Source: an uncultured virus (IMG/VR IMGVR_UViG_2848843299_000006)
Taxonomy: Duplodnaviria > Heunggongvirae > Uroviricota > Caudoviricetes
IMG/VR virus record: IMGVR_UViG_2848843299_000006
Reading direction: 5' to 3' (one strand)
Length of the DNA: 64,000 bases
The notes below the pieces were generated by a model. That model saw only the letters and a program-made list of their open reading frames with translations, made no database searches and was not told where the DNA came from. Shown in pieces: positions 1 through 50,818 of the stretch. The translations under genes were made by a program, and so were the position numbers. How positions within the stretch are numbered: the first letter of the stretch is position 1; every line of letters starts with the position of its first letter.

Positions 1-42
1 TTAACATCCAAAATAAAAACAAACAGATATACACCACCTCGG

Positions 43-418
43 GGACAGGTTGGCTTTCAAGAACGCTTCAAATAATGCCTCAACATCCGCCTCCGGATTA
101 CCGGTGGACGGAATAGCCGTTACCCCGTTGGTAACGGATGCCGGGGATACCTGTGCCACTTCGGCTTTAGCCGGATCGATAAAGTCAATATCAATCCGTT
201 CAATAATGGCCGAAGCCAGCGCATTACGGACCAGTGTATCGGCTGCCGGGTTACTGAATCTGACCAGCTCATCCGTCAGTACAGCAATGTTGGCAACTTT
301 GGCAACCCCCAGCTGAACAGACTGAAAATCGAATTTGGTCAGCGGTTTTGGTACGCCCTGCCCCACCCAGTAACCCTGACCGCCGCTGATTTGCCCCAGA
401 ATACGGACATTAAACGGA
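43..418 (-). pseudogene. HK97-family major capsid protein, internal fragment
   Basis: PFNVRI..GGQGYWVGQGVPKPLTKFDF..KVANIAVLTDELVRFSNPAADTLVRNALASAI; no proper start, and capsid-like sequence stops near 43. Confidence 0.8.
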
Positions 419-463
419 TTTGAGCACAGCAATGCGGGGTTTCAGTATCTTTAAACGCTTCAC
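419..463 (-). pseudogene. N-terminal stub of phage HNH endonuclease fused by deletion to the capsid fragment
   Basis: GTG at 463 reads MKRLKILKPRIAVLK, resembling N-termini of packaging-associated HNH proteins, then switches into capsid sequence. Confidence 0.5.
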
Positions 464-711
464 AGTGCAGAACCCGGTCTGGTGATGCTGATTAGTGCAT
501 CCTGTAATTTAATATCATTAACGTAGCGGGCAACTGTATGACCGGCGCTGTTGATAATTTCTGCTTTGTCACCGGGCTGTAATGTCAGGCTGTCACCACA
601 GTTGTTGTGGTCTGTGTAATCCAGCTTATATGCATACGGTGTCCACTGAATGCCGTAACCGGATTCAATAACTTCTTTACCTGATGCGGTCGTTACTTTG
701 ATTGTGAACAT
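460..711 (-). CDS. Hypothetical phage protein (83 aa)
   Basis: ORF with GGAG RBS in late-operon orientation. Confidence 0.6.
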   Translation of the reverse strand: MFTIKVTTASGKEVIESGYGIQWTPYAYKLDYTDHNNCGDSLTLQPGDKAEIINSAGHTVARYVNDIKLQDALISITRPGSAL

Positions 712-767
712 AGCTGCTTCTCCGGTCAGAAAGTCGGCTCATATGAACGGACTTTGTGTTTGGTTTG

Positions 768-932
768 AGCCGTCTCTCCGGCTGTCACGCCCGTTGCTCC
801 GGCAGATGACGACGTTGCTGCCTGCATTGGTAATCACACCATGGATTCGTTGTTTTTGATTCTCCCTGTACACTCACCGGGAAAGGTTTACGGGTCCCTG
901 TTAATACAGGAAGACTGCGACAACGCGGCGCA
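768..932 (-). ncRNA. Candidate structured RNA with kink-turn (copy A)
   Basis: Nested stems CGTTGT/ACAACG and TCTTCCTGTA/TACAGGGAGA enclosing AC-AGG-GACC...GTGA-GT; homologous core at 43361-43405. Confidence 0.55.
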
Positions 933-1031
933 TAAAAGCCCACTCAGTGAGCATGCTTTGTGATGGGTTACAGTGGCAGAGCCTCATTATTAAAAACAAA
1001 TTAATTTATTAAAAATCAAAAAGATAAAGCA

Positions 1032-3568: not shown

Positions 3569-3655
3569 CAATTAAATAACAATCAGTCTAATCATAATTA
3601 TAAAATGTGTAAACTGTAGCCATTACTGCGCCACTGAACATACAATATCCATATA

Positions 3656-3922
3656 CTAATAAGTATTTTTTCCTCTGGTTTTCTTACGATATAACAATAC
3701 AACTGCAGGAATAGCAAATGCATTAAAAATCAAAAAATTAGTTAGTGGCAATACTCCACCATGAATAAGCACTGGAATAAAATTAAACATCACAATACTG
3801 ACTATCAACCACAGCCCCCTGACTGGCTTTAACATCTCTTGTGATTCATTTTTGTCAGCATCAGATATCCGGTCATTAACCTCTTTACTGGTCATATCAT
3901 CCTCAAAATCCGATAATACCAT
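3656..3922 (-). CDS. Hypothetical membrane protein
   Basis: Two C-terminal hydrophobic segments. Confidence 0.45.
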   Translation of the reverse strand: MVLSDFEDDMTSKEVNDRISDADKNESQEMLKPVRGLWLIVSIVMFNFIPVLIHGGVLPLTNFLIFNAFAIPAVVLLYRKKTRGKNTY

Positions 3923-4472
3923 ACTGATAATAATAACTGTTATCCATTAAGATAACCAGCATAAAAACGTATGCAGACAACCGGACGCCTTTATATCACC
4001 CTGAGTGATAATCAAAACAAGACATCTCACCATAGTTAATCTTTTTTAATTATATTACGTGTAAACACATACTATTACGCTATAATAAAAAGGTAATGAA
4101 ATTTCCATAAAATAATGTCGCTTATTCCTTATGCCGGTTATTCCCAAACCGGCTTTTTTTGCATCTGAAATAAGAAACTGATTCAGTTCAACCGAACTGA
4201 CCTGCGCTACCAGAGTCTCACAGCAAGTATCCAGTTATTCGGAATAACCAAACATACGGCCCTCGGAAACTTCGGAAAACCTAACATGAAAGCCATTCTT
4301 ACAAGTTGGAAAAATAAAAAAGCCTCACCGAAGTGAGGCTTACACCGTAGTTATACCTTTAATCCACAAAATACTATTAACAACGGTGCATTATATATTA
4401 TGTTAGGACTGTAATTTTCAGGCCTTGTAAAACCCGCCAATATTGGCGGGTTTGGAACAAAAAAATAAGAAA

Positions 4473-6739: not shown

Positions 6740-7548
6740 TTATTTGTACAGAGAATTCTCTCCCGGAGGTCTGGTCTTAAACCTTCTGTGTGCCCACAAG
6801 TATTGGTCCGGAGCATGCAGGATTTCTGCCTCAATAATCTGATTTAGTTTCTCAGCATCTGCCAGGTCATCTCCACGCGGAAACTCAGTGATTTCTTTAC
6901 CAATTATTAATTCATAAGGCCTCTTACCACTTTCATTATTTCTTATCATCGTTGCAGTAAGTATCGGCGACTTCGATAATTTGGCTATAGCTGCCACTCC
7001 TTTTGATGCAGAAGCATTAGCTACCGAAAAAAAAGGGGCGAAGATAGTACCTTTAGTTCCAAAGTCCTGATCCGGAGCAAACCAAATAGCCTGCCCGCGT
7101 TTTAGTTCCGATACCATAAACTTCAGATTCTTACGGTCGATCATCCCACTTCCGGAGCGGCTTCGGCATCTTGTTTGTATATACTCCATTGCTTTATTGT
7201 TGTGCGGTCGATACATAGCATTTACAGGAAAACATAGCCCCATAACTCTGCCCTCAAGTTCCAGCGACATGGAATGGATACCAATAATTAAAACACCATT
7301 ATTTTTGTCATATACATCATTAAAGTTATCACAACCCATTACTGTAAATATTTTATTAATTCTTTTGTCATTCCAGAACCAGGCAATACCGGTTTCAAAT
7401 AATGCAACCCCTAAAGATGACAGGTTACTTGCGACACAAGCCATGGATAAGGCATCTGAACCAAACAGAAAAGCAATAGGATACCAATCCAGGTTAAAAT
7501 GTACCTTGGGTGGAGAAGCCTGATAGAAAATTTATTCAGAGAATACAT
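6740..7548 (-). pseudogene. lpxP: lpxP-like lipid A acyltransferase, frameshifted
   Basis: Near-identical to 48638-49567 but 809 vs 930 bp: 121 bp deletion at about 7432. Confidence 0.9.
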
Positions 7549-7774: not shown

Positions 7775-7987
7775 TTAGAGACCCACCACATTTGATGCAG
7801 ACGGACCTTTTGCCCCGTCTTCAATATTGAAGGTAACATTCTGACCTTCAAATAATGTCTTGAAGCTGTCGCTCTGGATCGCAGAGAAGTGAACAAACAC
7901 ATCTTTGCTGCCGTCAGCCGGAGTGATGAAGCCAAAACCTTTCGATTCGTTAAACCATTTTACTGAACCAGTCATTGTATTAGACAT
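7775..7987 (-). CDS. Cold-shock protein, CspA family (70 aa)
   Basis: [12 protein letters not shown] (RNP1), [10 protein letters not shown] (RNP2). Confidence 0.95.
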
Positions 7988-8194
7988 AGAATTTCCTTTA
8001 ATTTTTTTGATTGCCATAAGGCATATGAGGTTTGTTTTTTATTTTTACTTATGGGAATTAATTAGAAGGAATTCGCAATGAAGTGGTATCGGGGATAACG
8101 CTAAATGGTGAACGACTTTAAACTGACTAGCATAAATAGGCCTGTACTTCCAAACCAGTGACGCTATTAAGCCACAGATGATCACAAATAGCAA
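7988..8194 (-). promoter_or_regulatory. cspA-type promoter and ~170 nt cold-shock 5' UTR
   Basis: TTGCTA-17-CTTAAT (8194-8166) followed by cold-box-like GGTTTGGAAGTACAG. Confidence 0.75.
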
Positions 8195-8284: not shown

Positions 8285-8376
8285 AAAAAAAAACCGTAAA
8301 AACGGGGTTTCAGTTTGCAATCAATACGACACAGAAATAACTCTGATCACAATAGCGTCTTTTTTACGATCGTAAA
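8285..8376 (-). promoter_or_regulatory. Late promoter pR' and terminator tR'
   Basis: TTTACG..TATTGT overlapping the Q stop, then hairpin plus T-run. Confidence 0.55.
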
Positions 8377-8801
8377 GTATTAATTTTTAAATCATGTAAT
8401 TTGTTCATAAATGTCCGCATACCTCCATGATGTGATGTACCGTCCATTTCCAGTTTTACATCTCCCATTATGAGCATTCCTTCCACCAGCCCTTCTGCCT
8501 TCTGGAGTTTTTTCCCTATGTGAGTGTCTGAGCACCCGTATTTCTTGGCCAACTGAATAAACGTCTTACCGAAAACATAGTAATCAAAAAGCAGATCATG
8601 CATATCGCTGTTGCGGATGTTCAGTTTTGCCATAATGCCGGATATCACCAGTGCATCATTATCAGTACATTGCTGACGACTCTTAACTTTTTCAGGGATC
8701 AGCCCTTTAAACCCGGCAGCAATTGGTGACCAATATACTGATTCCTGATTATCAACAACCCAAGCCCCCCACCGTTCTAACACCTGGCGAATATCACGCA
8801 T
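8364..8801 (-). CDS. Q: Late antiterminator Q
   Basis: [44 protein letters not shown]. Confidence 0.92.
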
Positions 8802-38540: not shown

Positions 38541-38599
38541 CCTCTGGTTTTGATGGTGTAGTCACTGACTACAGGTAATAAAAAACCCGCCGGAGCGGG

Positions 38600-39661
38600 T
38601 CATTTGAGTTCGATATCGGCCTTTCTGAAGGCATCGGGTATGATTTTCTGAAGTTCCTTCAGTGTTATTGGTCTGAAGTATTTATCGAGTTGTAATTTTG
38701 CGAATCGTTCCGGTGATAACCCGCCGTCACGGAATAACTGTGCCCTGGTCTTACCAAGCACAATGTTCTGCCTGTTCGCTGGCTGGCGGTAAAGCCACTC
38801 GTAATAAGTTTCTTCGCCCCATTCAGAATTACCGACCGGCTCTGTGACAAACAAGTCTGCATATTTTTCATCAAGCACCGGGAGCAAGCGACTACGGCAG
38901 TTAGGGTGAAGCGGAGGTCTCGGTCCTTTACCAAGCGGATAACGGCGGCCGGACAGAGAACGGCACACTGCCGATGTTTTGTTATCCAGTATTGCACTGA
39001 ATTCCTCATACTTAATCAGGTCAGAATTCTCTTTATAGAAATCCGTCGCCGCCACACTGTGAGCATGTTGTAATGTCGTTCTGGCAACAGTCTGAAATCC
39101 CCTGACCACCCTGCCAACCACTGCCGCTGCGATTATCAGCGGTTCCGCTGAAGTTCCGTTAATCGCTGATTGCAGACCAGCCACACTCCCGCCTGACGAC
39201 AACGATATCACCACCTGATTCTCTATCTGCTGCATGGCTGTATCGGCCCACGACTCAATGAATTTGGCGAGAAACAGGGAGCTGTTCCATCCCGTCAGAG
39301 AGAGCGGTATGTTTTGCACATCTCTGCGCACCTTGTCAGTATCAGCCGGATTAACGTTTTTTACCAGTGAGTTAAACCCGTGATATTCAGCGTCTGCCAT
39401 CACAACAGCGGCGTTGATAATGTCATCAAGTAACCTGTCAGAATAACCGGAAAGAACTGGCTTTAGCGTTTTTCTCAGCGCCAGCGCAATTGATTTCGCT
39501 CTGCTGACTGAGGAAACACTACCGGAATATCCGGATAATGCAGATGCTACAGCAGCGCGAATATCTGACACCAGTTCACGTGTGTCAGCAGTTGATGACT
39601 TGAGCCTTTCCAGCATAATCTGAATCATCAGTGCATTATCAAAAATGAGACCCGGCCGCAT
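38600..39661 (-). CDS. Minor head morphogenesis protein (SPP1 gp7 / Mu F family)
   Basis: LDNKTS.VC..L.G..PPLHPNCRS. Confidence 0.88.
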   Translation of the reverse strand: MRPGLIFDNALMIQIMLERLKSSTADTRELVSDIRAAVASALSGYSGSVSSVSRAKSIALALRKTLKPVLSGYSDRLLDDIINAAVVMADAEYHGFNSLVKNVNPADTDKVRRDVQNIPLSLTGWNSSLFLAKFIESWADTAMQQIENQVVISLSSGGSVAGLQSAINGTSAEPLIIAAAVVGRVVRGFQTVARTTLQHAHSVAATDFYKENSDLIKYEEFSAILDNKTSAVCRSLSGRRYPLGKGPRPPLHPNCRSRLLPVLDEKYADLFVTEPVGNSEWGEETYYEWLYRQPANRQNIVLGKTRAQLFRDGGLSPERFAKLQLDKYFRPITLKELQKIIPDAFRKADIELK

Positions 39662-42531: not shown

Positions 42532-43059
42532 TTATTTGCCCGATAGTTCGTCCATCAGGTCAGAGAGAGTGCCGACAACATCATGCTCGCTTTTAATCTG
42601 GTCCCGGAATGCCTGGACAGATATGTGCTTACCGAGCAATTCAAGGTTCTTGACCTTGTCAGGCCATTTTATTTTCTTCAGGATGCCGATCATTTCCCGA
42701 TTTTCACCACGTCCTTCAAACATATCAGCAAGGTCGAAGCCGCTCAGGTAGCGTCGCCATGATGCAGGCCAGTCGGAGACCGGCCTTATGCTCATGTCAT
42801 CGGTCATAATGTCGAGAATATCCATCTGGTCTATTTCAACCAGGCGCCTCAGCACATATTCAGCATCAACTTTAAGTTGCTCACTGCGGCTGCTCATTAA
42901 TTCCTGAATCCGTTTTTCGATGTCAGGTTTTGTCAGGTTTTCATTCCCGACACTTCGCGCAGTTTTATCACTGTACCCCGCACGAATAGCCGCCTGTGTA
43001 GCGTTCAAATCTACGAGGTACTCACGACAAAACATTTCCTGTTTATCTGTGAGTGCCAT
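42532..43059 (-). CDS. terS: Terminase small subunit
   Basis: [24 protein letters not shown]. Confidence 0.95.
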
Positions 43060-43061
43060 AA

Positions 43062-43265
43062 TTATTCCTTGCTCTTTTCCTCAACCACCGGAATGTATCT
43101 GATGTCGCTGATTTCATCCGGTGCGGTATATGTCCATGAGCCATCCAGACCAGAAATACCAATCAGTCCGTTAGTAATGCGGGGCTCTTTCGTTGTCGTC
43201 AGTCCGTGATATGTCGTACCGTCCTTTTTGGTTGCTGTGACTTCGTATTTTTCAGTCATGTCCAC
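43062..43265 (-). CDS. Hypothetical phage protein
   Basis: Coupled to terS, GAGG RBS. Confidence 0.6.
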
Positions 43266-43289
43266 CTCAGTTGATTGATGTTCACCATT

Positions 43290-43425
43290 TCTTCCACCAC
43301 GGCAGGTGTCGCCGCATATGAGGGTGTCTTTATCCCGGTGTTACCGATTATTCTGGATGTCCACACGCTCGCTGTGAGGAGTGGCACTGGTCATGGCTAA
43401 TGTGGCAGAGGAGATCGGCAGCTCG
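43290..43425 (-). ncRNA. Candidate structured RNA with kink-turn (copy B)
   Basis: Stems TGCCGAT/ATCGGTA and CCACA/TGTGG enclosing GC-CAT-GACC...GCGA-GC; covaries with copy A. Confidence 0.55.
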
Positions 43426-43431
43426 CAGGTA

Positions 43432-43456
43432 ATAAAAAACCCGCCGGAGCGGGTTG
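43432..43456 (-). terminator. Intrinsic terminator downstream of blc
   Basis: AACCCGC TCCG GCGGGTT plus T-run; similar hairpins at about 38578-38600 and 23783-23804. Confidence 0.7.
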
Positions 43457-48637: not shown

Positions 48638-49567
48638 TTATTTGTACAGAGAATTTTCTCCCGGAGGTCTGGTCTTAAACCTTCTGTGTGCCCACAAGTA
48701 TTGGTCCGGAGCATGCATGATTTCTGCCTCAATAATCTGATTTAGTTTCTCAGCATCTGCCAGGTCATCTCCACACGGAAAATCAGCAATTTCTTTACCA
48801 ATTATTAATTCATAAGGCCTCTTACCACTTTCATTATTTCTTATCATCGTTGCAGTAAGTATCGGCGACTTCGATAATTTGGCTATAGCTGCCACTCCTT
48901 TTGATGTAGAAGCATTAGCTACCGAAAAAAAAGGGGCGAAGATAGTACCTTTAGTTCCAAAGTCCTGATCCGGAGCAAACCAAATAGCCTGCCCGCGTTT
49001 TAGTTCCGATACCATAAACTTCAGATTCTTACGGTCGATCATCCCGCTTCCGGAACGGCTTCGGCATCTTGTTTGTATATACTCCATTGCTTTATTGTTG
49101 TGGGGACGATACATAGCATTTACAGGAAAACACAGCCCCATAACTCTGCCCCCAAGTTCCAGCGACATGGAATGAATACCAATAATTAAAACACCATTAT
49201 TTTTGTCATATACATCATTAAAGTTATCACAACCCGTTACTCTAAATATTTCATTAATTTTTTTGTCATTCCAGAACCAGGCAATACCGGTTTCAAATAA
49301 TGCAATCCCTAAAGATGACAGGTTGCTTGCAACCATACTCTCTATCTGGATTTTATTTCTGTCAGGAAAACATAATTCTAAATTTTTTTTAATTATGGAT
49401 ACCCGCCTTTTCAGGAACAAACCAGAAAAACGACCTAACTTATCGCCTAAAAACACAAGCCATGGATAAGGCATCTGAACTAAACAGAAAAGCAACAGGA
49501 TACCAATCCAGGTTAAAATGTACCTTGGGTGAAGAAGCCTGATAGAAAATTTATTCAGAGAATACAT
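48638..49567 (-). CDS. lpxP: Lipid A acyltransferase, LpxP-like (palmitoleoyl transferase)
   Basis: HPRY.LTW..KNLELCFP..H.MSLELGGRVMGLC..WFAPDQD..QYLW.HRRFKTRP; MSLELGGRVMGLC matches LpxP rather than LpxL. Confidence 0.88.
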   Translation of the reverse strand: MYSLNKFSIRLLHPRYILTWIGILLLFCLVQMPYPWLVFLGDKLGRFSGLFLKRRVSIIKKNLELCFPDRNKIQIESMVASNLSSLGIALFETGIAWFWNDKKINEIFRVTGCDNFNDVYDKNNGVLIIGIHSMSLELGGRVMGLCFPVNAMYRPHNNKAMEYIQTRCRSRSGSGMIDRKNLKFMVSELKRGQAIWFAPDQDFGTKGTIFAPFFSVANASTSKGVAAIAKLSKSPILTATMIRNNESGKRPYELIIGKEIADFPCGDDLADAEKLNQIIEAEIMHAPDQYLWAHRRFKTRPPGENSLYK

Positions 49568-49792: not shown

Positions 49793-50005
49793 TTAGAGAC
49801 CCACCACATTTGATGCAGACGGACCTTTTGCCCCGTCTTCAATATTGAAGGTAACATTCTGACCTTCAAATAATGTTTTGAAGCTGTCACTCTGGATCGC
49901 AGAGAAGTGAACAAACACATCTTTGCTACCATCTGCCGGAGAGATGAAGCCAAAACCTTTCGATTCGTTAAACCATTTTACTGAACCAGTCATTGTATTA
50001 GACAT
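49793..50005 (-). CDS. Cold-shock protein, CspA family
   Basis: RNP1/RNP2 motifs; cspA-type promoter at 50183-50211. Confidence 0.95.
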
Positions 50006-50300
50006 AGAATTTCCTTTAATTTTTTGATTGCCATAAGGCATATGAGGTTTGTTTTTTATTTTTACTTATGGGAATTAATTAGAAGGAATTCGCAATGAAG
50101 TGGTATCGAGGATAACGCTAAATGGTGAACGACTTTAAACTGACTAGCATAAATAGGCCTGTACTTCCAAACCAGTGACCCCATTAAGCCACAGATGATC
50201 ACAAATAGCAAACTTTATTATTTTATCCCTCGGATGTTACGTATCACTACACGTAAATCACGACTGATTTTAACCAATTATCTTATCTGTTTATCAACAT

Positions 50301-50393
50301 AAAAAAACCCCCGTAAAAACGGGGTTTCAGTTTGTAATCAATACGACACAGAAATAACTCTGATCACAATAGCGTCTTTTTTACGATCGTAAA
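50301..50393 (-). promoter_or_regulatory. pR' and tR'
   Basis: Same arrangement as 8285-8376. Confidence 0.55.
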
Positions 50394-50818
50394 GCATTAA
50401 TTTTTAAATCATGTAATTTGTTCATAAATGTCCGCATACCTCCATGATGTGATGTACCGTCCATTTCCAGTTTTACATCTCCCATTATGAGCATTCCTTC
50501 CACCAGCCCTTCTGCCTTCTGGAGTTTTTTCCCTATGTGAGTGTCTGAGCACCCGTATTTCTTGGCCAACTGAATAAACGTCTTACCGAAAACATAGTAA
50601 TCAAAAAGCAGATCATGCATATCGCTGTTGCGGATGTTCAGTTTTGCCATAATGCCGGATATCACCAGTGCATCATTATCAGTACATTGCTGACGACTCT
50701 TAACTTTTTCAGGGATCAGCCCTTTAAACCCGGCAGCAATTGGTGACCAATATACTGATTCCTGATTATCAACAACCCAAGCCCCCCACCGTTCTAACAC
50801 CTGGCGAATATCACGCAT
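50381..50818 (-). CDS. Q: Late antiterminator Q
   Basis: Differs from 8364-8801 by one residue in the ORF track. Confidence 0.92.

What the first reader, a model, noticed from the sequence alone, without database searches (positions are those of the whole stretch)
768..932. Kink-turn-containing structured RNA conserved between lysis and packaging genes in both prophages (copy A)
Seen: on the late (minus) strand, a 10 bp stem TCTTCCTGTA/TACAGGGAGA inside an outer stem CGTTGT/ACAACG encloses TTAAC-AGG-GACC..(loop)..G-TGAGTG. At 43361-43405 a different stem (CCACA/TGTGG) encloses TTAGC-CAT-GACC..(loop)..G-CGAGCG. The cores are 34 and 35 nt, the closing stems differ in sequence but still pair, and AC/GT becomes GC/GC (compensatory). 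Established: C-stem, 3 nt bulge, tandem G.A/A.G, then NC-stem is the kink-turn consensus, and both copies fit it. G-U pairs favour the minus strand. Inference: an orphan phage RNA motif kept in the same slot (after a terminator-like hairpin, before a small ORF and the HNH/terminase genes) even though the two phages have unrelated head modules. Possible roles are late-operon control, a protein-binding platform or packaging.
Basis: partly seen in the sequence, partly recalled or inferred. Interest (0 to 1): 0.8.

Follow-up and report, generated by a model that had tools for sequence, protein, structure and literature searches.

The report
Prophage late-operon structured RNA family
An apparently undescribed folded RNA of about 200 bases, with a kink-turn-like hairpin and a pseudoknot, lies between the lysis genes and the DNA-packaging genes of many Morganella, Proteus and Providencia prophages; transcripts largely end inside it, so it probably helps control when the packaging genes are expressed.

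Summary
Both hairpins exist at the stated coordinates on the minus strand. Copy A belongs to a family with 60 distinct sequences in Morganella, Proteus and Providencia prophages.

A covariance model built from copy A's relatives finds copy B as the only other significant hit in the window (23.3 bits, E about 6e-4). It also hits 29 of 29 loci that carry copy B's downstream gene.

Over 73 distinct sequences, 95.4% of cells pair, against 17-55% for shifted controls. 18 of 21 pairs show changes on both sides. G-U pairs fix the strand as the late-gene sense strand.

The internal loop fits the k-turn sequence signature: C-G closing pair, a 3-nt bulge, G·A in 68 of 73, and A·G in 54 or A·U in 18 of 73.

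The hairpin is only the 5' domain. Downstream lie a variable hairpin, an H-type pseudoknot with a purine-rich GGURGAAGAA loop, and in A-type copies a GAGAGA-loop hairpin.

No Rfam 15 family matches, and four literature searches found nothing.

Stranded RNA-seq of a Proteus-type copy shows sense-strand expression and a discrete 3' end inside the pseudoknot. RNA falls 10- to 20-fold beyond it, although there is no intrinsic terminator at that point.

Best reading: a cis-acting junction or gate RNA of the late operon. The mechanism is unproven.

The parts
938..952 (-). Copy A: terminator-like hairpin T1 (GCTCACTGAGTGGGC followed by TTTTATG), immediately upstream of the element.
   Evidence: Terminator scan. 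My own script found a similar upstream terminator in 27 of 60 family members.
730..931 (-). Copy A: the whole conserved A-type element. It runs from the 5' flank GCGCCG, through P1-P2-k-turn-P3, H2, the H3/pseudoknot and H4, to H5.
   Evidence: Alignments A1 and A2, consensus fold, coordinates.
848..925 (-). Copy A: the 5' domain, a long hairpin. P1 is 925..920 with 853..848. The conserved internal loop is CGCAG (919..915) opposite ATCAAAA (860..854). P2 is 914..904 with 871..861.
   Evidence: P1 and P2 covary; for example the second P1 pair is GC 35, AU 18, CG 8, GU 5, UA 1.
872..903 (-). Copy A: k-turn-like loop and P3. Bulge UA 903..902; C-stem AC 901..900 with GU 873..872; 3-nt bulge AGG 899..897; G·A and A·G pairs (GA 896..895 with GA 875..874); 3b·3n C894·U876; P3 CCG 893..891 with CGG 879..877; pyrimidine-rich loop 890..880.
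   Evidence: Positional statistics cover 73 distinct sequences.
828..841 (-). Copy A: variable hairpin H2 (UGGU-GUGAUU-ACCA).
   Evidence: Read from alignment A2. The stem changes to CGGU/ACCG in relatives. It was not tested statistically.
784..822 (-). Copy A: H-type pseudoknot. H3 is GGCAG (822..818) with CUGCC (805..801). The loop sequence ACGUC pairs with GGCGU (791..787) across the purine-rich linker GGAGCAACG (800..792). The invariant GAC follows at 786..784.
   Evidence: The homologous position in a Proteus copy is the in vivo RNA 3' end.
768..783 (-). Copy A: hairpin H4 (AGCCG-GAGAGA-CGGCU). The hexaloop is conserved and the stem covaries.
   Evidence: Pair 176-187 is AU 25, CG 22, GC 4; pair 177-186 is UA 25, CG 22.
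730..755 (-). Copy A: hairpin H5 (AAAGUCCG-UUCAUAUGAG-CCGACUUU). Its type changes with the downstream gene module.
   Evidence: Read from alignments. Not tested statistically.
460..723 (-). Copy A: Shine-Dalgarno GGAG (723..720) and an 83-aa ORF of unknown function (phrog_3909, weak match). It is the first gene after the element.
1..432 (-). Copy A prophage: a fragment matching the middle part of a major head protein gene. HNH, terS, terL and protease, which are present in the intact relative L208, are missing here.
   Evidence: (phrog_617 positions 383-511 of 626).
43438..43455 (-). Copy B: intrinsic terminator T1, after the Blc lipocalin moron.
43283..43425 (-). Copy B: the whole B-type element. 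P1 is UGCCGA (43420..43415) with UCGGUA (43347..43342). P2 is UCUG+CCACAU with GUGUGG+CAGA. Then the k-turn-like loop, H2, H3 and the pseudoknot.
43367..43399 (-). Copy B: k-turn-like loop and P3. Bulge UA; C-stem GC/GC; 3-nt bulge CAU; GA (43392..43391) with GA (43370..43369); 3b·3n C·C; P3 CAGUG/CACAG with one A·A mismatch, where most relatives have CUGUG.
43283..43315 (-). Copy B: pseudoknot. H3 is GCGGC-GACACCU-GCCGU. The loop sequence CACC pairs with GGUG (43286..43283) across the linker GGUGGAAGAAAU.
43062..43268 (-). Copy B: Shine-Dalgarno GAGGUGG and a 67-aa ORF (phrog_6581). It is followed by terS (42532-43059, Terminase_2), terL and portal.

Best explanation
The finding is the 5' domain of a real, conserved structured RNA of about 145-200 nt that is new to the databases searched. 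It lies in the late transcript of lambdoid prophages of Morganella, Proteus and Providencia, exactly at the junction between the upstream genes (lysis genes or morons, often ending in a terminator) and the first gene of the head and packaging module.

Architecture:
- A long hairpin, P1 then P2, with an invariant asymmetric internal loop.
- A k-turn-type loop near its top, capped by a short P3 with a pyrimidine-rich loop.
- A variable hairpin.
- An H-type pseudoknot whose 10-12-nt purine-rich strand (GGURGAAGAA) crosses the H3 stem.
- In A-type copies, a GAGAGA-loop hairpin and a further hairpin before the ribosome-binding site.

Proposed mode of action (inferred): it works in cis as a junction or gate. 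RNA entering from upstream acquires a defined 3' end at the pseudoknot, by termination or by cleavage. The folded domain stabilises that upstream RNA, and little RNA continues into the HNH/terminase genes unless the polymerase has been modified by the phage late antiterminator Q. The k-turn would bend the hairpin so that it can dock on the pseudoknot domain.

My estimates: a real structured RNA, about 0.9; k-turn geometry, about 0.6; the gate or 3'-end-formation mechanism, about 0.4.
For: Structure:
- 60 distinct A-type cores were collected.
- 21 pairs hold in 97.7% of cells on 47 sequences.
- On 73 distinct sequences including B-type and divergent members, 95.4% of cells pair, 18 of 21 pairs change on both sides, 0 of 500 shuffles reach the observed scores, and slid controls give 17-55%.
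- RNAalifold finds the same hairpin independently.
- H3 and H4 stems covary.
- The pseudoknot pairing keeps its position while its sequence changes: ACGUC/GGCGU, ACGUU/GACGU, CACC/GGUG, GCCGUG/CACGGC, CGUC/GACG, UCUCGAU/AUCGAGA.

Strand: the U·G pair at columns 28-78 occurs in 70 of 73 sequences and would be C·A on the other strand.

Homology of the two copies: model R1 finds copy B and 29 of 29 B-type loci.

Slot:
- Both window prophages have the order Q, morons, lysis genes, element, head genes.
- The first downstream genes are diverse.
- In L011 the element starts right after the Rz stop codon, so it is co-transcribed with the lysis genes.

Expression (two stranded raw-read RNA runs laid on a Proteus-type copy):
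- Sense depth is 55-150 up to the element and 118-134 over it.
- Depth is then 15.5/8.5 and 5/6 in the next two bins.
- Fragment ends pile up at L139:4081, in GGGGC^GUGAC (12 of 51 and 19 of 55 molecules, with adapter read-through in 3 reads).
- Antisense depth over the element is 0.
- There is no hairpin plus U-run at that site. The nearest intrinsic terminator is 57 nt further downstream.
Against: - The 3' end lies inside the 3' strand of the predicted pseudoknot rather than just after it, which fits poorly with simple exonuclease trimming to a structure.
- The RNA-seq comes from one study, one family member and unknown growth conditions.
- The 91-nt downstream piece, which would end at terminator T2, could be lost in library size selection. 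In that case the drop would reflect cleavage rather than a block.
- By my own script, 25 of 60 members have an ordinary intrinsic terminator between the element and the first head gene. A pure barrier function would therefore be redundant and does not explain the many invariant unpaired bases.
- The sequences come from a few related genera with two or three main lineages, so the number of independent substitutions is far lower than the cell counts. A blind scan found many lineage-driven complementary column pairs.
- R-scape was not run.
- Alignment A5 was fitted to the model, which favours the structure.
- No partner protein emerged: CSD genes in 10 of 44 and PF06530 Q in 26 of 44 element-bearing records.
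Confidence: 0.42

Rival explanations
1. Conditional attenuator (riboswitch-like or protein-responsive leader). The k-turn hairpin plus pseudoknot would form a sensor domain that binds a small molecule or a phage or host protein. H4, H5 and, where present, T2 would be the expression platform that decides whether transcription or translation proceeds into the packaging genes.
For: - The element has riboswitch-like complexity: many invariant unpaired bases, a k-turn, a pseudoknot and a purine-rich strand.
- It always lies just upstream of the first gene's ribosome-binding site.
- An abundant truncated leader with little read-through is the pattern of a riboswitch in its OFF state.
- 25 of 60 members have a terminator after the element.
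Against: - No alternative, mutually exclusive pairing (antiterminator) was found by eye.
- The 3' end is not at the terminator T2.
- The regions downstream of H4 differ between types, and B-type copies lack H4.
- The downstream genes share no metabolic theme that would suggest a ligand.
- No co-occurring protein was found.
Confidence: 0.15
2. Stable trans-acting or decoy RNA. The folded domain would be the functional product, an sRNA-like species made from read-through or local promoters, including in lysogens. It would act on host or phage targets, for example as a sponge, an anti-defence RNA or a defence trigger.
For: - In the Proteus-type copy the RNA accumulates in what is probably an uninduced culture, with a coverage bump over the element.
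- Candidate 5' ends lie near L139:3917-3920, downstream of a promoter-like site at 3882-3910. Together with the discrete 3' end at 4081, this gives a species of about 165 nt.
- Published precedent: prophage-encoded sRNAs, and the structured cabRNA from staphylococcal phage terminase genes that is sensed by CBASS (PMC10686824; I saw only the abstract in a search listing).
Against: - A dedicated promoter is not conserved. In copy A and in L011 the element directly follows a terminator or the Rz stop codon.
- There is no terminator-type 3' end of the kind usual for Hfq-dependent sRNAs.
- The conserved single-stranded stretch differs between A-type (AAUCAAAAAC) and B-type (GAAUAAUC), so a shared seed is unlikely.
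- The evidence for 5' ends is thin: 3-5 reads each.
Confidence: 0.15
3. Processive antitermination element (nut-, put-, EAR- or LoaP-leader-like). The RNA, alone or with a phage protein, would modify RNA polymerase so that it reads through the terminators of the long structural operon.
For: - The element sits at the head of a roughly 20-kb operon and is flanked by terminators: T1 in 27 of 60 and a downstream terminator in 25 of 60 members.
- H4, a 4-5-bp stem with a purine hexaloop preceded by the invariant GGCGUGAC, recalls a boxA-boxB arrangement. This resemblance is recalled, not tested.
Against: - These phages already encode Q antiterminators upstream.
- In the RNA-seq, transcripts that contain the element do not read on; they end inside it. 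A phage factor absent in lysogens could explain this.
- B-type copies lack H4.
- No sequence model of put or nut was available to test.
Confidence: 0.08
4. Self-cleaving ribozyme or dedicated RNase processing site. It would cut the late polycistronic RNA between GGC and GUGAC, separating the lysis or moron RNA from the head-gene RNA, much as RNase III sites do in T7.
For: - A discrete 3' end lies at an invariant sequence, with no terminator there.
- Many bases in loops are invariant.
- The downstream product would begin 5 nt before hairpin H4, a 5'-end arrangement that I recall as stabilising.
Against: - No Rfam ribozyme family matches in any of 9 stretches examined at permissive thresholds.
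- An HDV-like P1 pairing that is possible in L139 is absent in other types (my reading).
- No matching 5' end at position 4082 was reported.
- The site sequence differs in B-type and divergent members.
Confidence: 0.08
5. DNA-level element, such as a cos or pac site, a protein-binding inverted repeat, or merely a conserved linker that promotes recombination between phage modules, with no RNA function.
For: - It lies where cos or pac sites are often found (recalled).
- Mosaic breakpoints occur at its edges and inside it: L193 and L221 are truncated after the first hairpin, and the flank upstream of B-type copies is completely variable.
Against: - Compensatory changes preserve pairing rather than sequence.
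- G-U pairs work on one strand only.
- The element precedes unrelated packaging systems, both HNH-type and Terminase_2-type.
- It is transcribed.
Confidence: 0.03

Closest known systems
Kink-turn motifs inside bacterial riboswitch aptamers (for example SAM-I, where a k-turn lets a hairpin loop form a pseudoknot). Recalled from the literature, not from a call.
   Same: An internal loop with a C-G closing pair, a 3-nt bulge, tandem G·A/A·G and a continuing helix, lying in a hairpin of an RNA that also contains a pseudoknot. The hosts, as far as I recall, lack an L7Ae-type protein, so folding would rely on tertiary contacts.
   Different: No Rfam riboswitch model matches. No ligand is known and no four-way junction is present. 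The C-stem is only 2 bp and is followed by an invariant UA bulge. 18 of 73 sequences have A·U at the second pair.
Lambda nut and HK022 put antiterminator RNAs, and leader hairpins for NusG paralogues such as LoaP (recalled).
   Same: Cis-acting structured RNAs in lambdoid phage transcripts that lie near terminators and govern read-through of long operons.
   Different: Those act just downstream of early promoters or at operon 5' ends and increase read-through. This element lies in the late operon of phages that have Q, and transcripts ended in it in the one data set examined. Membership could not be tested because no models were available.
Lambda pR' leader (6S RNA ending at tR') and other leader-terminator arrangements (recalled).
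   Same: A roughly 200-nt leader RNA that accumulates as a short species and precedes late genes that need Q for expression.
   Different: The lambda leader lies upstream of the lysis genes, starts at a promoter and ends at an intrinsic terminator. This element lies downstream of the lysis genes, has no conserved promoter, and the mapped end is not at a terminator.
T7 RNase III processing signals (recalled).
   Same: Irregular hairpins with internal loops, located between genes of a phage polycistronic RNA, that create defined ends and stabilise the products.
   Different: The mapped end is not in the long hairpin but in the pseudoknot region. The element is larger and has many invariant unpaired bases. 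RNase III dependence is untested.
cabRNA of staphylococcal phages (PMC10686824; abstract seen in a search listing).
   Same: A structured RNA made from the terminase region of temperate phages.
   Different: cabRNA is transcribed from within the terminase genes of Gram-positive phages and is defined by binding a CBASS cyclase. No sequence comparison was made here, and the slot differs: this element lies upstream of the module.

Membership tests
Kink-turn (k-turn) motif | A canonical (C) helix ending in a Watson-Crick pair, typically C-G, next to the loop. | tested here: met
   The -1b/-1n pair is C-G in 71 of 73 distinct sequences. The next pair covaries: GC 43, AU 21, GU 4. Caveat: the C helix is only 2 bp and is followed by an invariant UA bulge before P2.
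Kink-turn (k-turn) motif | A three-nucleotide bulge on the 5' strand. | tested here: met
   There are three unpaired columns in all 73 rows. L1 is U 46, C 23; L2 is A 62, G 11; L3 is U 60, C 11.
Kink-turn (k-turn) motif | A first sheared pair G(1b)·A(1n). | tested here: met
   G and A stand at these positions in 68 of 73 rows. The exceptions are AA 2, GU 2 and GG 1. Only base identity was tested, not pair geometry.
Kink-turn (k-turn) motif | A second sheared pair A(2b)·G(2n). | tested here: inconclusive
   2b is A in 73 of 73 rows. 2n is G in 54, U in 18 and A in 1, and U occurs in both A-type and B-type copies. I recall A·U at this position as a rare natural variant; this was not checked.
Kink-turn (k-turn) motif | A non-canonical (NC) helix continuing after the G·A pairs. 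| tested here: met
   P3 has 3 pairs that hold in 96.3% of cells, and all three carry changes on both sides.
Kink-turn (k-turn) motif | A tight kink in three dimensions, or binding by an L7Ae-family protein. | not testable with these tools
   No RNA 3D prediction or probing is available here.
Any family in Rfam release 15 | A covariance-model match at or near the gathering score. | tested here: not met
   There was no match on the element at E up to 10 for either window copy, or at E up to 1 for 7 further members. The weak hits listed fall on neighbouring terminators or elsewhere.
H-type pseudoknot | A hairpin (S1) whose loop pairs with sequence 3' of the hairpin (S2), with a strand that crosses S1. 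| tested here: met
   S1 (H3) core pairs covary: CG 41/UA 15, and AU 49/UA 4/GC 3. S2 pairs in 99.6% of cells within the A-type, with one-sided changes only. Across types S2 keeps its place, 8-12 nt after H3, with six different sequence pairs. The cross-type comparison uses few sequences and a simple script.
Intrinsic (Rho-independent) terminator at the mapped RNA 3' end | A G+C-rich hairpin directly followed by a U run. | tested here: not met
   The 3' end is at L139:4081, in GAAGAAGGGGC^GUGAC, which has no U run. The only terminator-like site on that strand is at 4138-4162.
Small self-cleaving ribozymes (hammerhead, twister, pistol, hatchet, HDV-like) | A match to the class consensus, or conserved class-specific helices. 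| tested here: not met
   No Rfam hits. An HDV-like P1 (GUGACG/CGUCAU) is possible in L139 but absent in other types, by my reading. Cleavage activity itself is not testable here.
Lambda nut or HK022 put antiterminator RNAs | A position just downstream of an early promoter; boxA plus boxB, or the two-stem put fold; increased read-through. | tested here: not met
   The position is in the late operon, after the lysis genes. Transcripts end within the element rather than reading through. Sequence and fold similarity to put or nut was not tested, because no model was held.
Riboswitch | A conserved aptamer, an alternative expression platform, and a defined ligand. | tested here: inconclusive
   Aptamer-like conservation and complexity are present. 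No competing pairing was identified, and a ligand cannot be tested here.

The most novel reading that the evidence does not exclude
The element is a new class of sensing or self-processing RNA, either a riboswitch-like aptamer or a ribozyme. A k-turn-bent hairpin would dock on an H-type pseudoknot, and the fold would decide, in response to a cellular or phage signal, whether the late transcript is cut or ended at GGC^GUGAC or continues into the HNH/terminase genes. That would make it an RNA checkpoint between lysis-gene and packaging-gene expression in lambdoid phages.
Probability: 0.2. Interest if true: 0.85.

Novelty: new member of a known kind. Interest (0 to 1): 0.66.

Why it matters
Lambdoid late operons are usually described as a single Q-antiterminated transcript with no internal RNA control. 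This work shows a large structured RNA, supported by covariation, conserved at the lysis-to-packaging junction across phages with unrelated packaging modules. It also shows a defined RNA end inside that element. Together these point to an unrecognised layer of control or processing of late phage transcripts.

The element adds a well-supported orphan RNA family to bacterial RNA biology: a k-turn signature plus an H-type pseudoknot, in bacteria that, as far as I recall, lack L7Ae-type proteins. It is small enough for probing and structural work.

It also marks a recurrent recombination joint between phage modules, and a practical landmark for annotating the start of the head module in Morganella, Proteus and Providencia prophages.

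Tried and rejected
- **15-mer scan.** In the blastn, 18 of the loci then held resembled copy A. The 20-mer scans replaced this.
- **TTGTCGC filter.** Filtering on TTGTCGC upstream dropped 16 of 103 loci. At least one dropped locus, L214, is a true member with a variant sequence: R1 scores 88.1 bits at the same genomic place. The family is therefore somewhat larger than counted.
- **Promoter inside the element.** I considered TTGTCG-N17-TATGAC. The would-be -10 hexamer is the variable k-turn bulge (AGGGAC and TGTGAT in other members), so this was rejected.
- **Coding explanation.** GenBank records annotate opposite-strand hypothetical CDSs over the element. One-base indels in P2 between close relatives, and the absence of any conserved ORF in the window, argue against them.
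- **Homology of the two small ORFs.** None found: no BLASTP alignment at E up to 100.
- **Partner protein by co-occurrence.** Cold-shock-domain genes occur in 10 of 44 and PF06530 Q in 26 of 44 element-bearing virus records. There is no strict association, and no background rate was measured.
- **Blind covariation scan.** A scan for further long-range pairs returned many lineage-driven pairs and could not be interpreted. Pairing of the pyrimidine-rich P3 loop with the purine linker or the GAGAGA loop remains an untested idea.
- **Other folds and sites.** I considered by eye an HDV-like fold, hairpin-ribozyme-like features, an RNase P substrate and an RfaH ops site (GGTAG). None is conserved across types.
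- **Earlier findings of this scan.** Nothing for this genome or this sequence.
- **Literature.** Four full-text searches and a term look-up in PMC5737381 found no description of this element.
- **Contig-only RNA runs.** X1 and X8 show presence only and are not counted as evidence of expression.
Full report
**1. The observation**

On the minus strand, copy A has the outer stem CGTTGT (925..920) with ACAACG (853..848). Inside it is the stem TCTTCCTGTA(T) (914..904) with (G)TACAGGGAGA (871..861), and a 34-nt core TTAAC-AGG-GACC...G-TGAGTG. Copy B has CCACA(T) (43405..43400) with (G)TGTGG (43366..43361) around a 35-nt core TTAGC-CAT-GACC...G-CGAGCG.

A single-sequence fold of 768-932 recovers the 11-bp stem. 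Its energy is not remarkable: z -1.77 on the minus strand and -0.62 on the plus strand. The case therefore has to rest on comparison with relatives.

**2. Context**

The window is the first 64 kb of a 66.5-kb IMG/VR provirus record. Its close relatives are Morganella and Providencia phages.

Both prophages are lambdoid. Each has a Phage_antitermQ gene, then morons (a cold-shock-domain protein, a lipid A acyltransferase and, before copy B, a Blc lipocalin), then holin, lysozyme and Rz/Rz1, then a terminator-like hairpin, then the element, then a small ORF.

After copy B come a 67-aa ORF, a Terminase_2 small subunit, the large subunit and portal.

After copy A come an 83-aa ORF and then only a middle fragment of a major head gene, at the edge of the record. 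In the intact relative L208 (Morganella morganii), the 83-aa ORF is followed by HNH, terS, terL and a prohead protease.

**3. A family**

The copy A non-coding stretch (937..720) is about 80% identical to unannotated DNA in Morganella phage IME1369_02 and Providencia phage PSTRCR_117lys, and more weakly similar to PSTCR3.

An invariant 20-mer found 75 viral loci and 25 genome loci. I examined 103 loci in total, counting three phage loci. Of these, 87 have TTGTCGC upstream and 16 were dropped. The named genomic members are all Morganella, Proteus or Providencia. At least one dropped locus, L214, is a true variant. This gave 60 distinct cores including the window's.

The first gene downstream differs widely: two HNH families, Terminase_2 terS directly, DUF2560, phrog_4827, phrog_34403/31985, a 216-aa phrog_1924 protein, and the 83-aa ORF. 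Upstream is usually Rz/Rz1. In L011 the element begins right after the Rz stop codon, so it belongs to the late transcript.

**4. Structure of the 5' domain**

RNAalifold on 58 sequences predicts P1, P2, a 2-bp stem, an asymmetric loop and P3.

On 47 distinct sequences, the 21 pairs hold in 97.7% of cells. With partners slid by 1-3 columns the figure is 25.6-52.7%. Nine pairs carry changes on both sides, and 0 of 500 shuffles reach the observed values.

A covariance model (R1) scores copy A at 94.3 bits. Copy B, at 43335-43425, is the only other hit above noise in the window: 23.3 bits, E about 6e-4, with the next hit at 10.6 bits. Copy B's P1 (UGCCGA/UCGGUA) shares no pair with copy A's, yet is fully paired.

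R1 hits 29 of 29 loci that encode the 67-aa ORF, always just upstream of it. In a sample of 151 genomes of the surrounding GTDB family it hits 7, including divergent copies with yet other P1 helices, such as UCCCG/CGGGA.

On 73 distinct sequences of all types, 95.4% of cells pair, 18 of 21 pairs change on both sides, 0 of 500 shuffles reach the observed scores, and slid controls give 17-55%. That alignment was fitted to the model, which favours it.

The U·G pair at columns 28-78 (70 of 73 sequences), along with other G-U pairs, would be mismatches on the other strand. The RNA is therefore the late-gene sense strand.

Caveat: the sequences fall into a few lineages, so independent events are far fewer than cells. 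A blind scan shows many lineage-driven complementary column pairs. R-scape was not available.

**5. The k-turn question**

The loop has the following features:
- a C-G closing pair in 71 of 73 sequences;
- a covarying R-Y pair below it;
- a 3-nt bulge of variable sequence;
- G and A at 1b/1n in 68 of 73;
- A at 2b in 73 of 73, with G (54), U (18) or A (1) at 2n;
- C at 3b opposite U, C or A;
- a covarying 3-bp P3.

This fits the k-turn sequence signature well. Two oddities remain: the C-stem is only 2 bp before an invariant UA bulge, and a quarter of the sequences have A·U at the second pair. The kinked geometry cannot be tested here.

**6. The element is larger than the finding**

Conserved blocks continue for about 100 nt after the hairpin:
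- A variable hairpin H2.
- Hairpin H3, whose core pairs covary (CG 41/UA 15; AU 49/UA 4/GC 3).
- A purine-rich strand: GGAGAAGAA, GGUAGAAGAA, or GGUGGAAGAA in B-type copies.
- A short segment complementary to the H3 loop.

This loop-to-downstream pairing keeps its place, 8-12 nt after H3, while its sequence changes: ACGUC/GGCGU, ACGUU/GACGU, CACC/GGUG (copy B), GCCGUG/CACGGC, CGUC/GACG and UCUCGAU/AUCGAGA. In L277, by eye, it is ACGGC/GUCGU. That is the layout of an H-type pseudoknot.

A-type copies add GUGAC, hairpin H4 with a GAGAGA loop whose stem covaries, and hairpin H5, whose type changes with the downstream module. B-type copies go from the pseudoknot almost straight to the ribosome-binding site.

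**7. Not a known family**

Rfam 15 at permissive thresholds gives nothing on the element in the two window copies or in seven other members. Four full-text searches and one look-up in the 224-motif paper found no description. The scan's own notes hold nothing.

**8. Expression**

A Proteus-type copy (L139; element about 3935-4100) was laid with two stranded raw-read RNA runs from one study.

First mates lie on the minus strand. In most stranded libraries this means the RNA is the plus strand of L139, which is the predicted sense strand. Antisense depth over the element is 0.

| L139 region | Sense depth (X21 / X22) |
|---|---|
| 3600 up to the element | 55-150 |
| over the hairpin | 118 / 134 |
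| 4044-4080 | about 71 / 71 |
| 4081-4117 | 15.5 / 8.5 |
| 4118-4154 | 5 / 6 |

Fragment ends pile up at 4081 (12 of 51 and 19 of 55 molecules), with adapter read-through in 3 reads. The sequence there is GAAGAAGGGGC^GUGAC, inside the 3' strand of the pseudoknot and 5 nt before H4. There is no hairpin plus U-run at that point. The nearest intrinsic terminator is at 4138-4162.

The drop is not a mapping artefact. The same strain's contig matches L139 without any difference up to 4233.

Upstream, candidate 5' ends near 3615 and near 3917-3920 suggest local promoters in this type. These promoters are not conserved in other types.

Limits: one study, one family member and unknown growth conditions. 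In addition, a 91-nt downstream product could be lost in library preparation.

**9. What it most likely does**

Shown: a conserved, transcribed, structured RNA at the junction between the lysis or moron genes and the head module. It is independent of the packaging system and of any single Q family or the cold-shock moron. It has a defined RNA end inside it.

Inferred: it acts in cis as a junction or gate. RNA from upstream promoters ends or is cut at the pseudoknot, the folded domain protects that end, and packaging genes stay low unless Q-modified polymerase passes. Expression of HNH/terminase in a lysogen would plausibly be harmful.

What this does not explain: by my own script, many members also have ordinary terminators before the element (27 of 60) and after it (25 of 60). 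The many invariant unpaired bases also suggest a more specific partner or chemistry.

Rivals kept open are a ligand- or protein-responsive attenuator, a stable trans-acting RNA, an antitermination site, and a ribozyme or processing site. A DNA-level role is unlikely.

**10. Verdict**

The element is a new structured RNA family built from known modules (a k-turn signature and an H-type pseudoknot), and its function is unresolved. Interest is moderate to high: 0.66.

Noticed in passing
window 1-711 (minus strand): The prophage carrying copy A is a remnant. The 83-aa ORF is followed directly by a fragment matching the middle part of a major head gene. The intact relative L208 has HNH, terS, terL and a prohead protease in between.
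   Followed up: partly
window 43426-43454 and 38572-38600 (minus strand): A 29-base exact repeat of the terminator region upstream of copy B recurs about 4.8 kb downstream in the head region of the same prophage.
   Followed up: no
window 8364-8801 and 50381-50818; 7775-8017 and 49793-50041; 6740-7444 and 48638-49567: Both prophages carry the same trio after the ninG-like gene: a 145-aa Q antiterminator (identical Pfam scores), a cold-shock-domain protein and a lipid A acyltransferase. The acyltransferase is 234 aa in one prophage and 309 aa in the other, so one copy looks truncated.
   Followed up: no
L139:3600-3930: In the Proteus-type locus, an AT-rich stretch upstream of the element is strongly transcribed in the sense direction, from about 3615. 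It has a second discrete 3' end at 3847 and contains only tiny ORFs of 21-25 codons. It may be a lysogen-expressed RNA or a micropeptide gene.
   Followed up: partly
L009:3721-4074 (KY653119, protein ARM67981.1): The gene annotated 'holin' right after the element is an HNH endonuclease by Pfam (E 8.5e-16) and PHROGs (phrog_144, E 1.8e-42).
   Followed up: yes
L010:3538-4020 minus strand (QQK88399.1); L001:4259-4408 minus strand (ARM67915.1): GenBank hypothetical CDSs are annotated on the opposite strand across the element. They are probably spurious, given the RNA covariation and the indels among relatives.
   Followed up: partly
window 806-817 (minus strand): Copy A has a 3-base duplication (CGU) in the H3 loop compared with its 98.7%-identical relative L142/L090.
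   Followed up: no
L134, L139, L149, L152 and others, about 135-160 nt after the conserved 20-mer: A conserved intrinsic terminator (AGCCAUCAGUUAA..CUGGUGGCU followed by a U run) lies between the element and the first head gene in Proteus-type loci. It is present even where the element is truncated (L193).
   Followed up: partly
L193 and L221: Two loci keep only the 5' hairpin domain and diverge immediately after it, which indicates recombination breakpoints inside the element.
   Followed up: no
G111 (five hits) and G024 (three hits with identical scores): Single genomes carry several copies of the element, presumably in different prophages.
   Followed up: no
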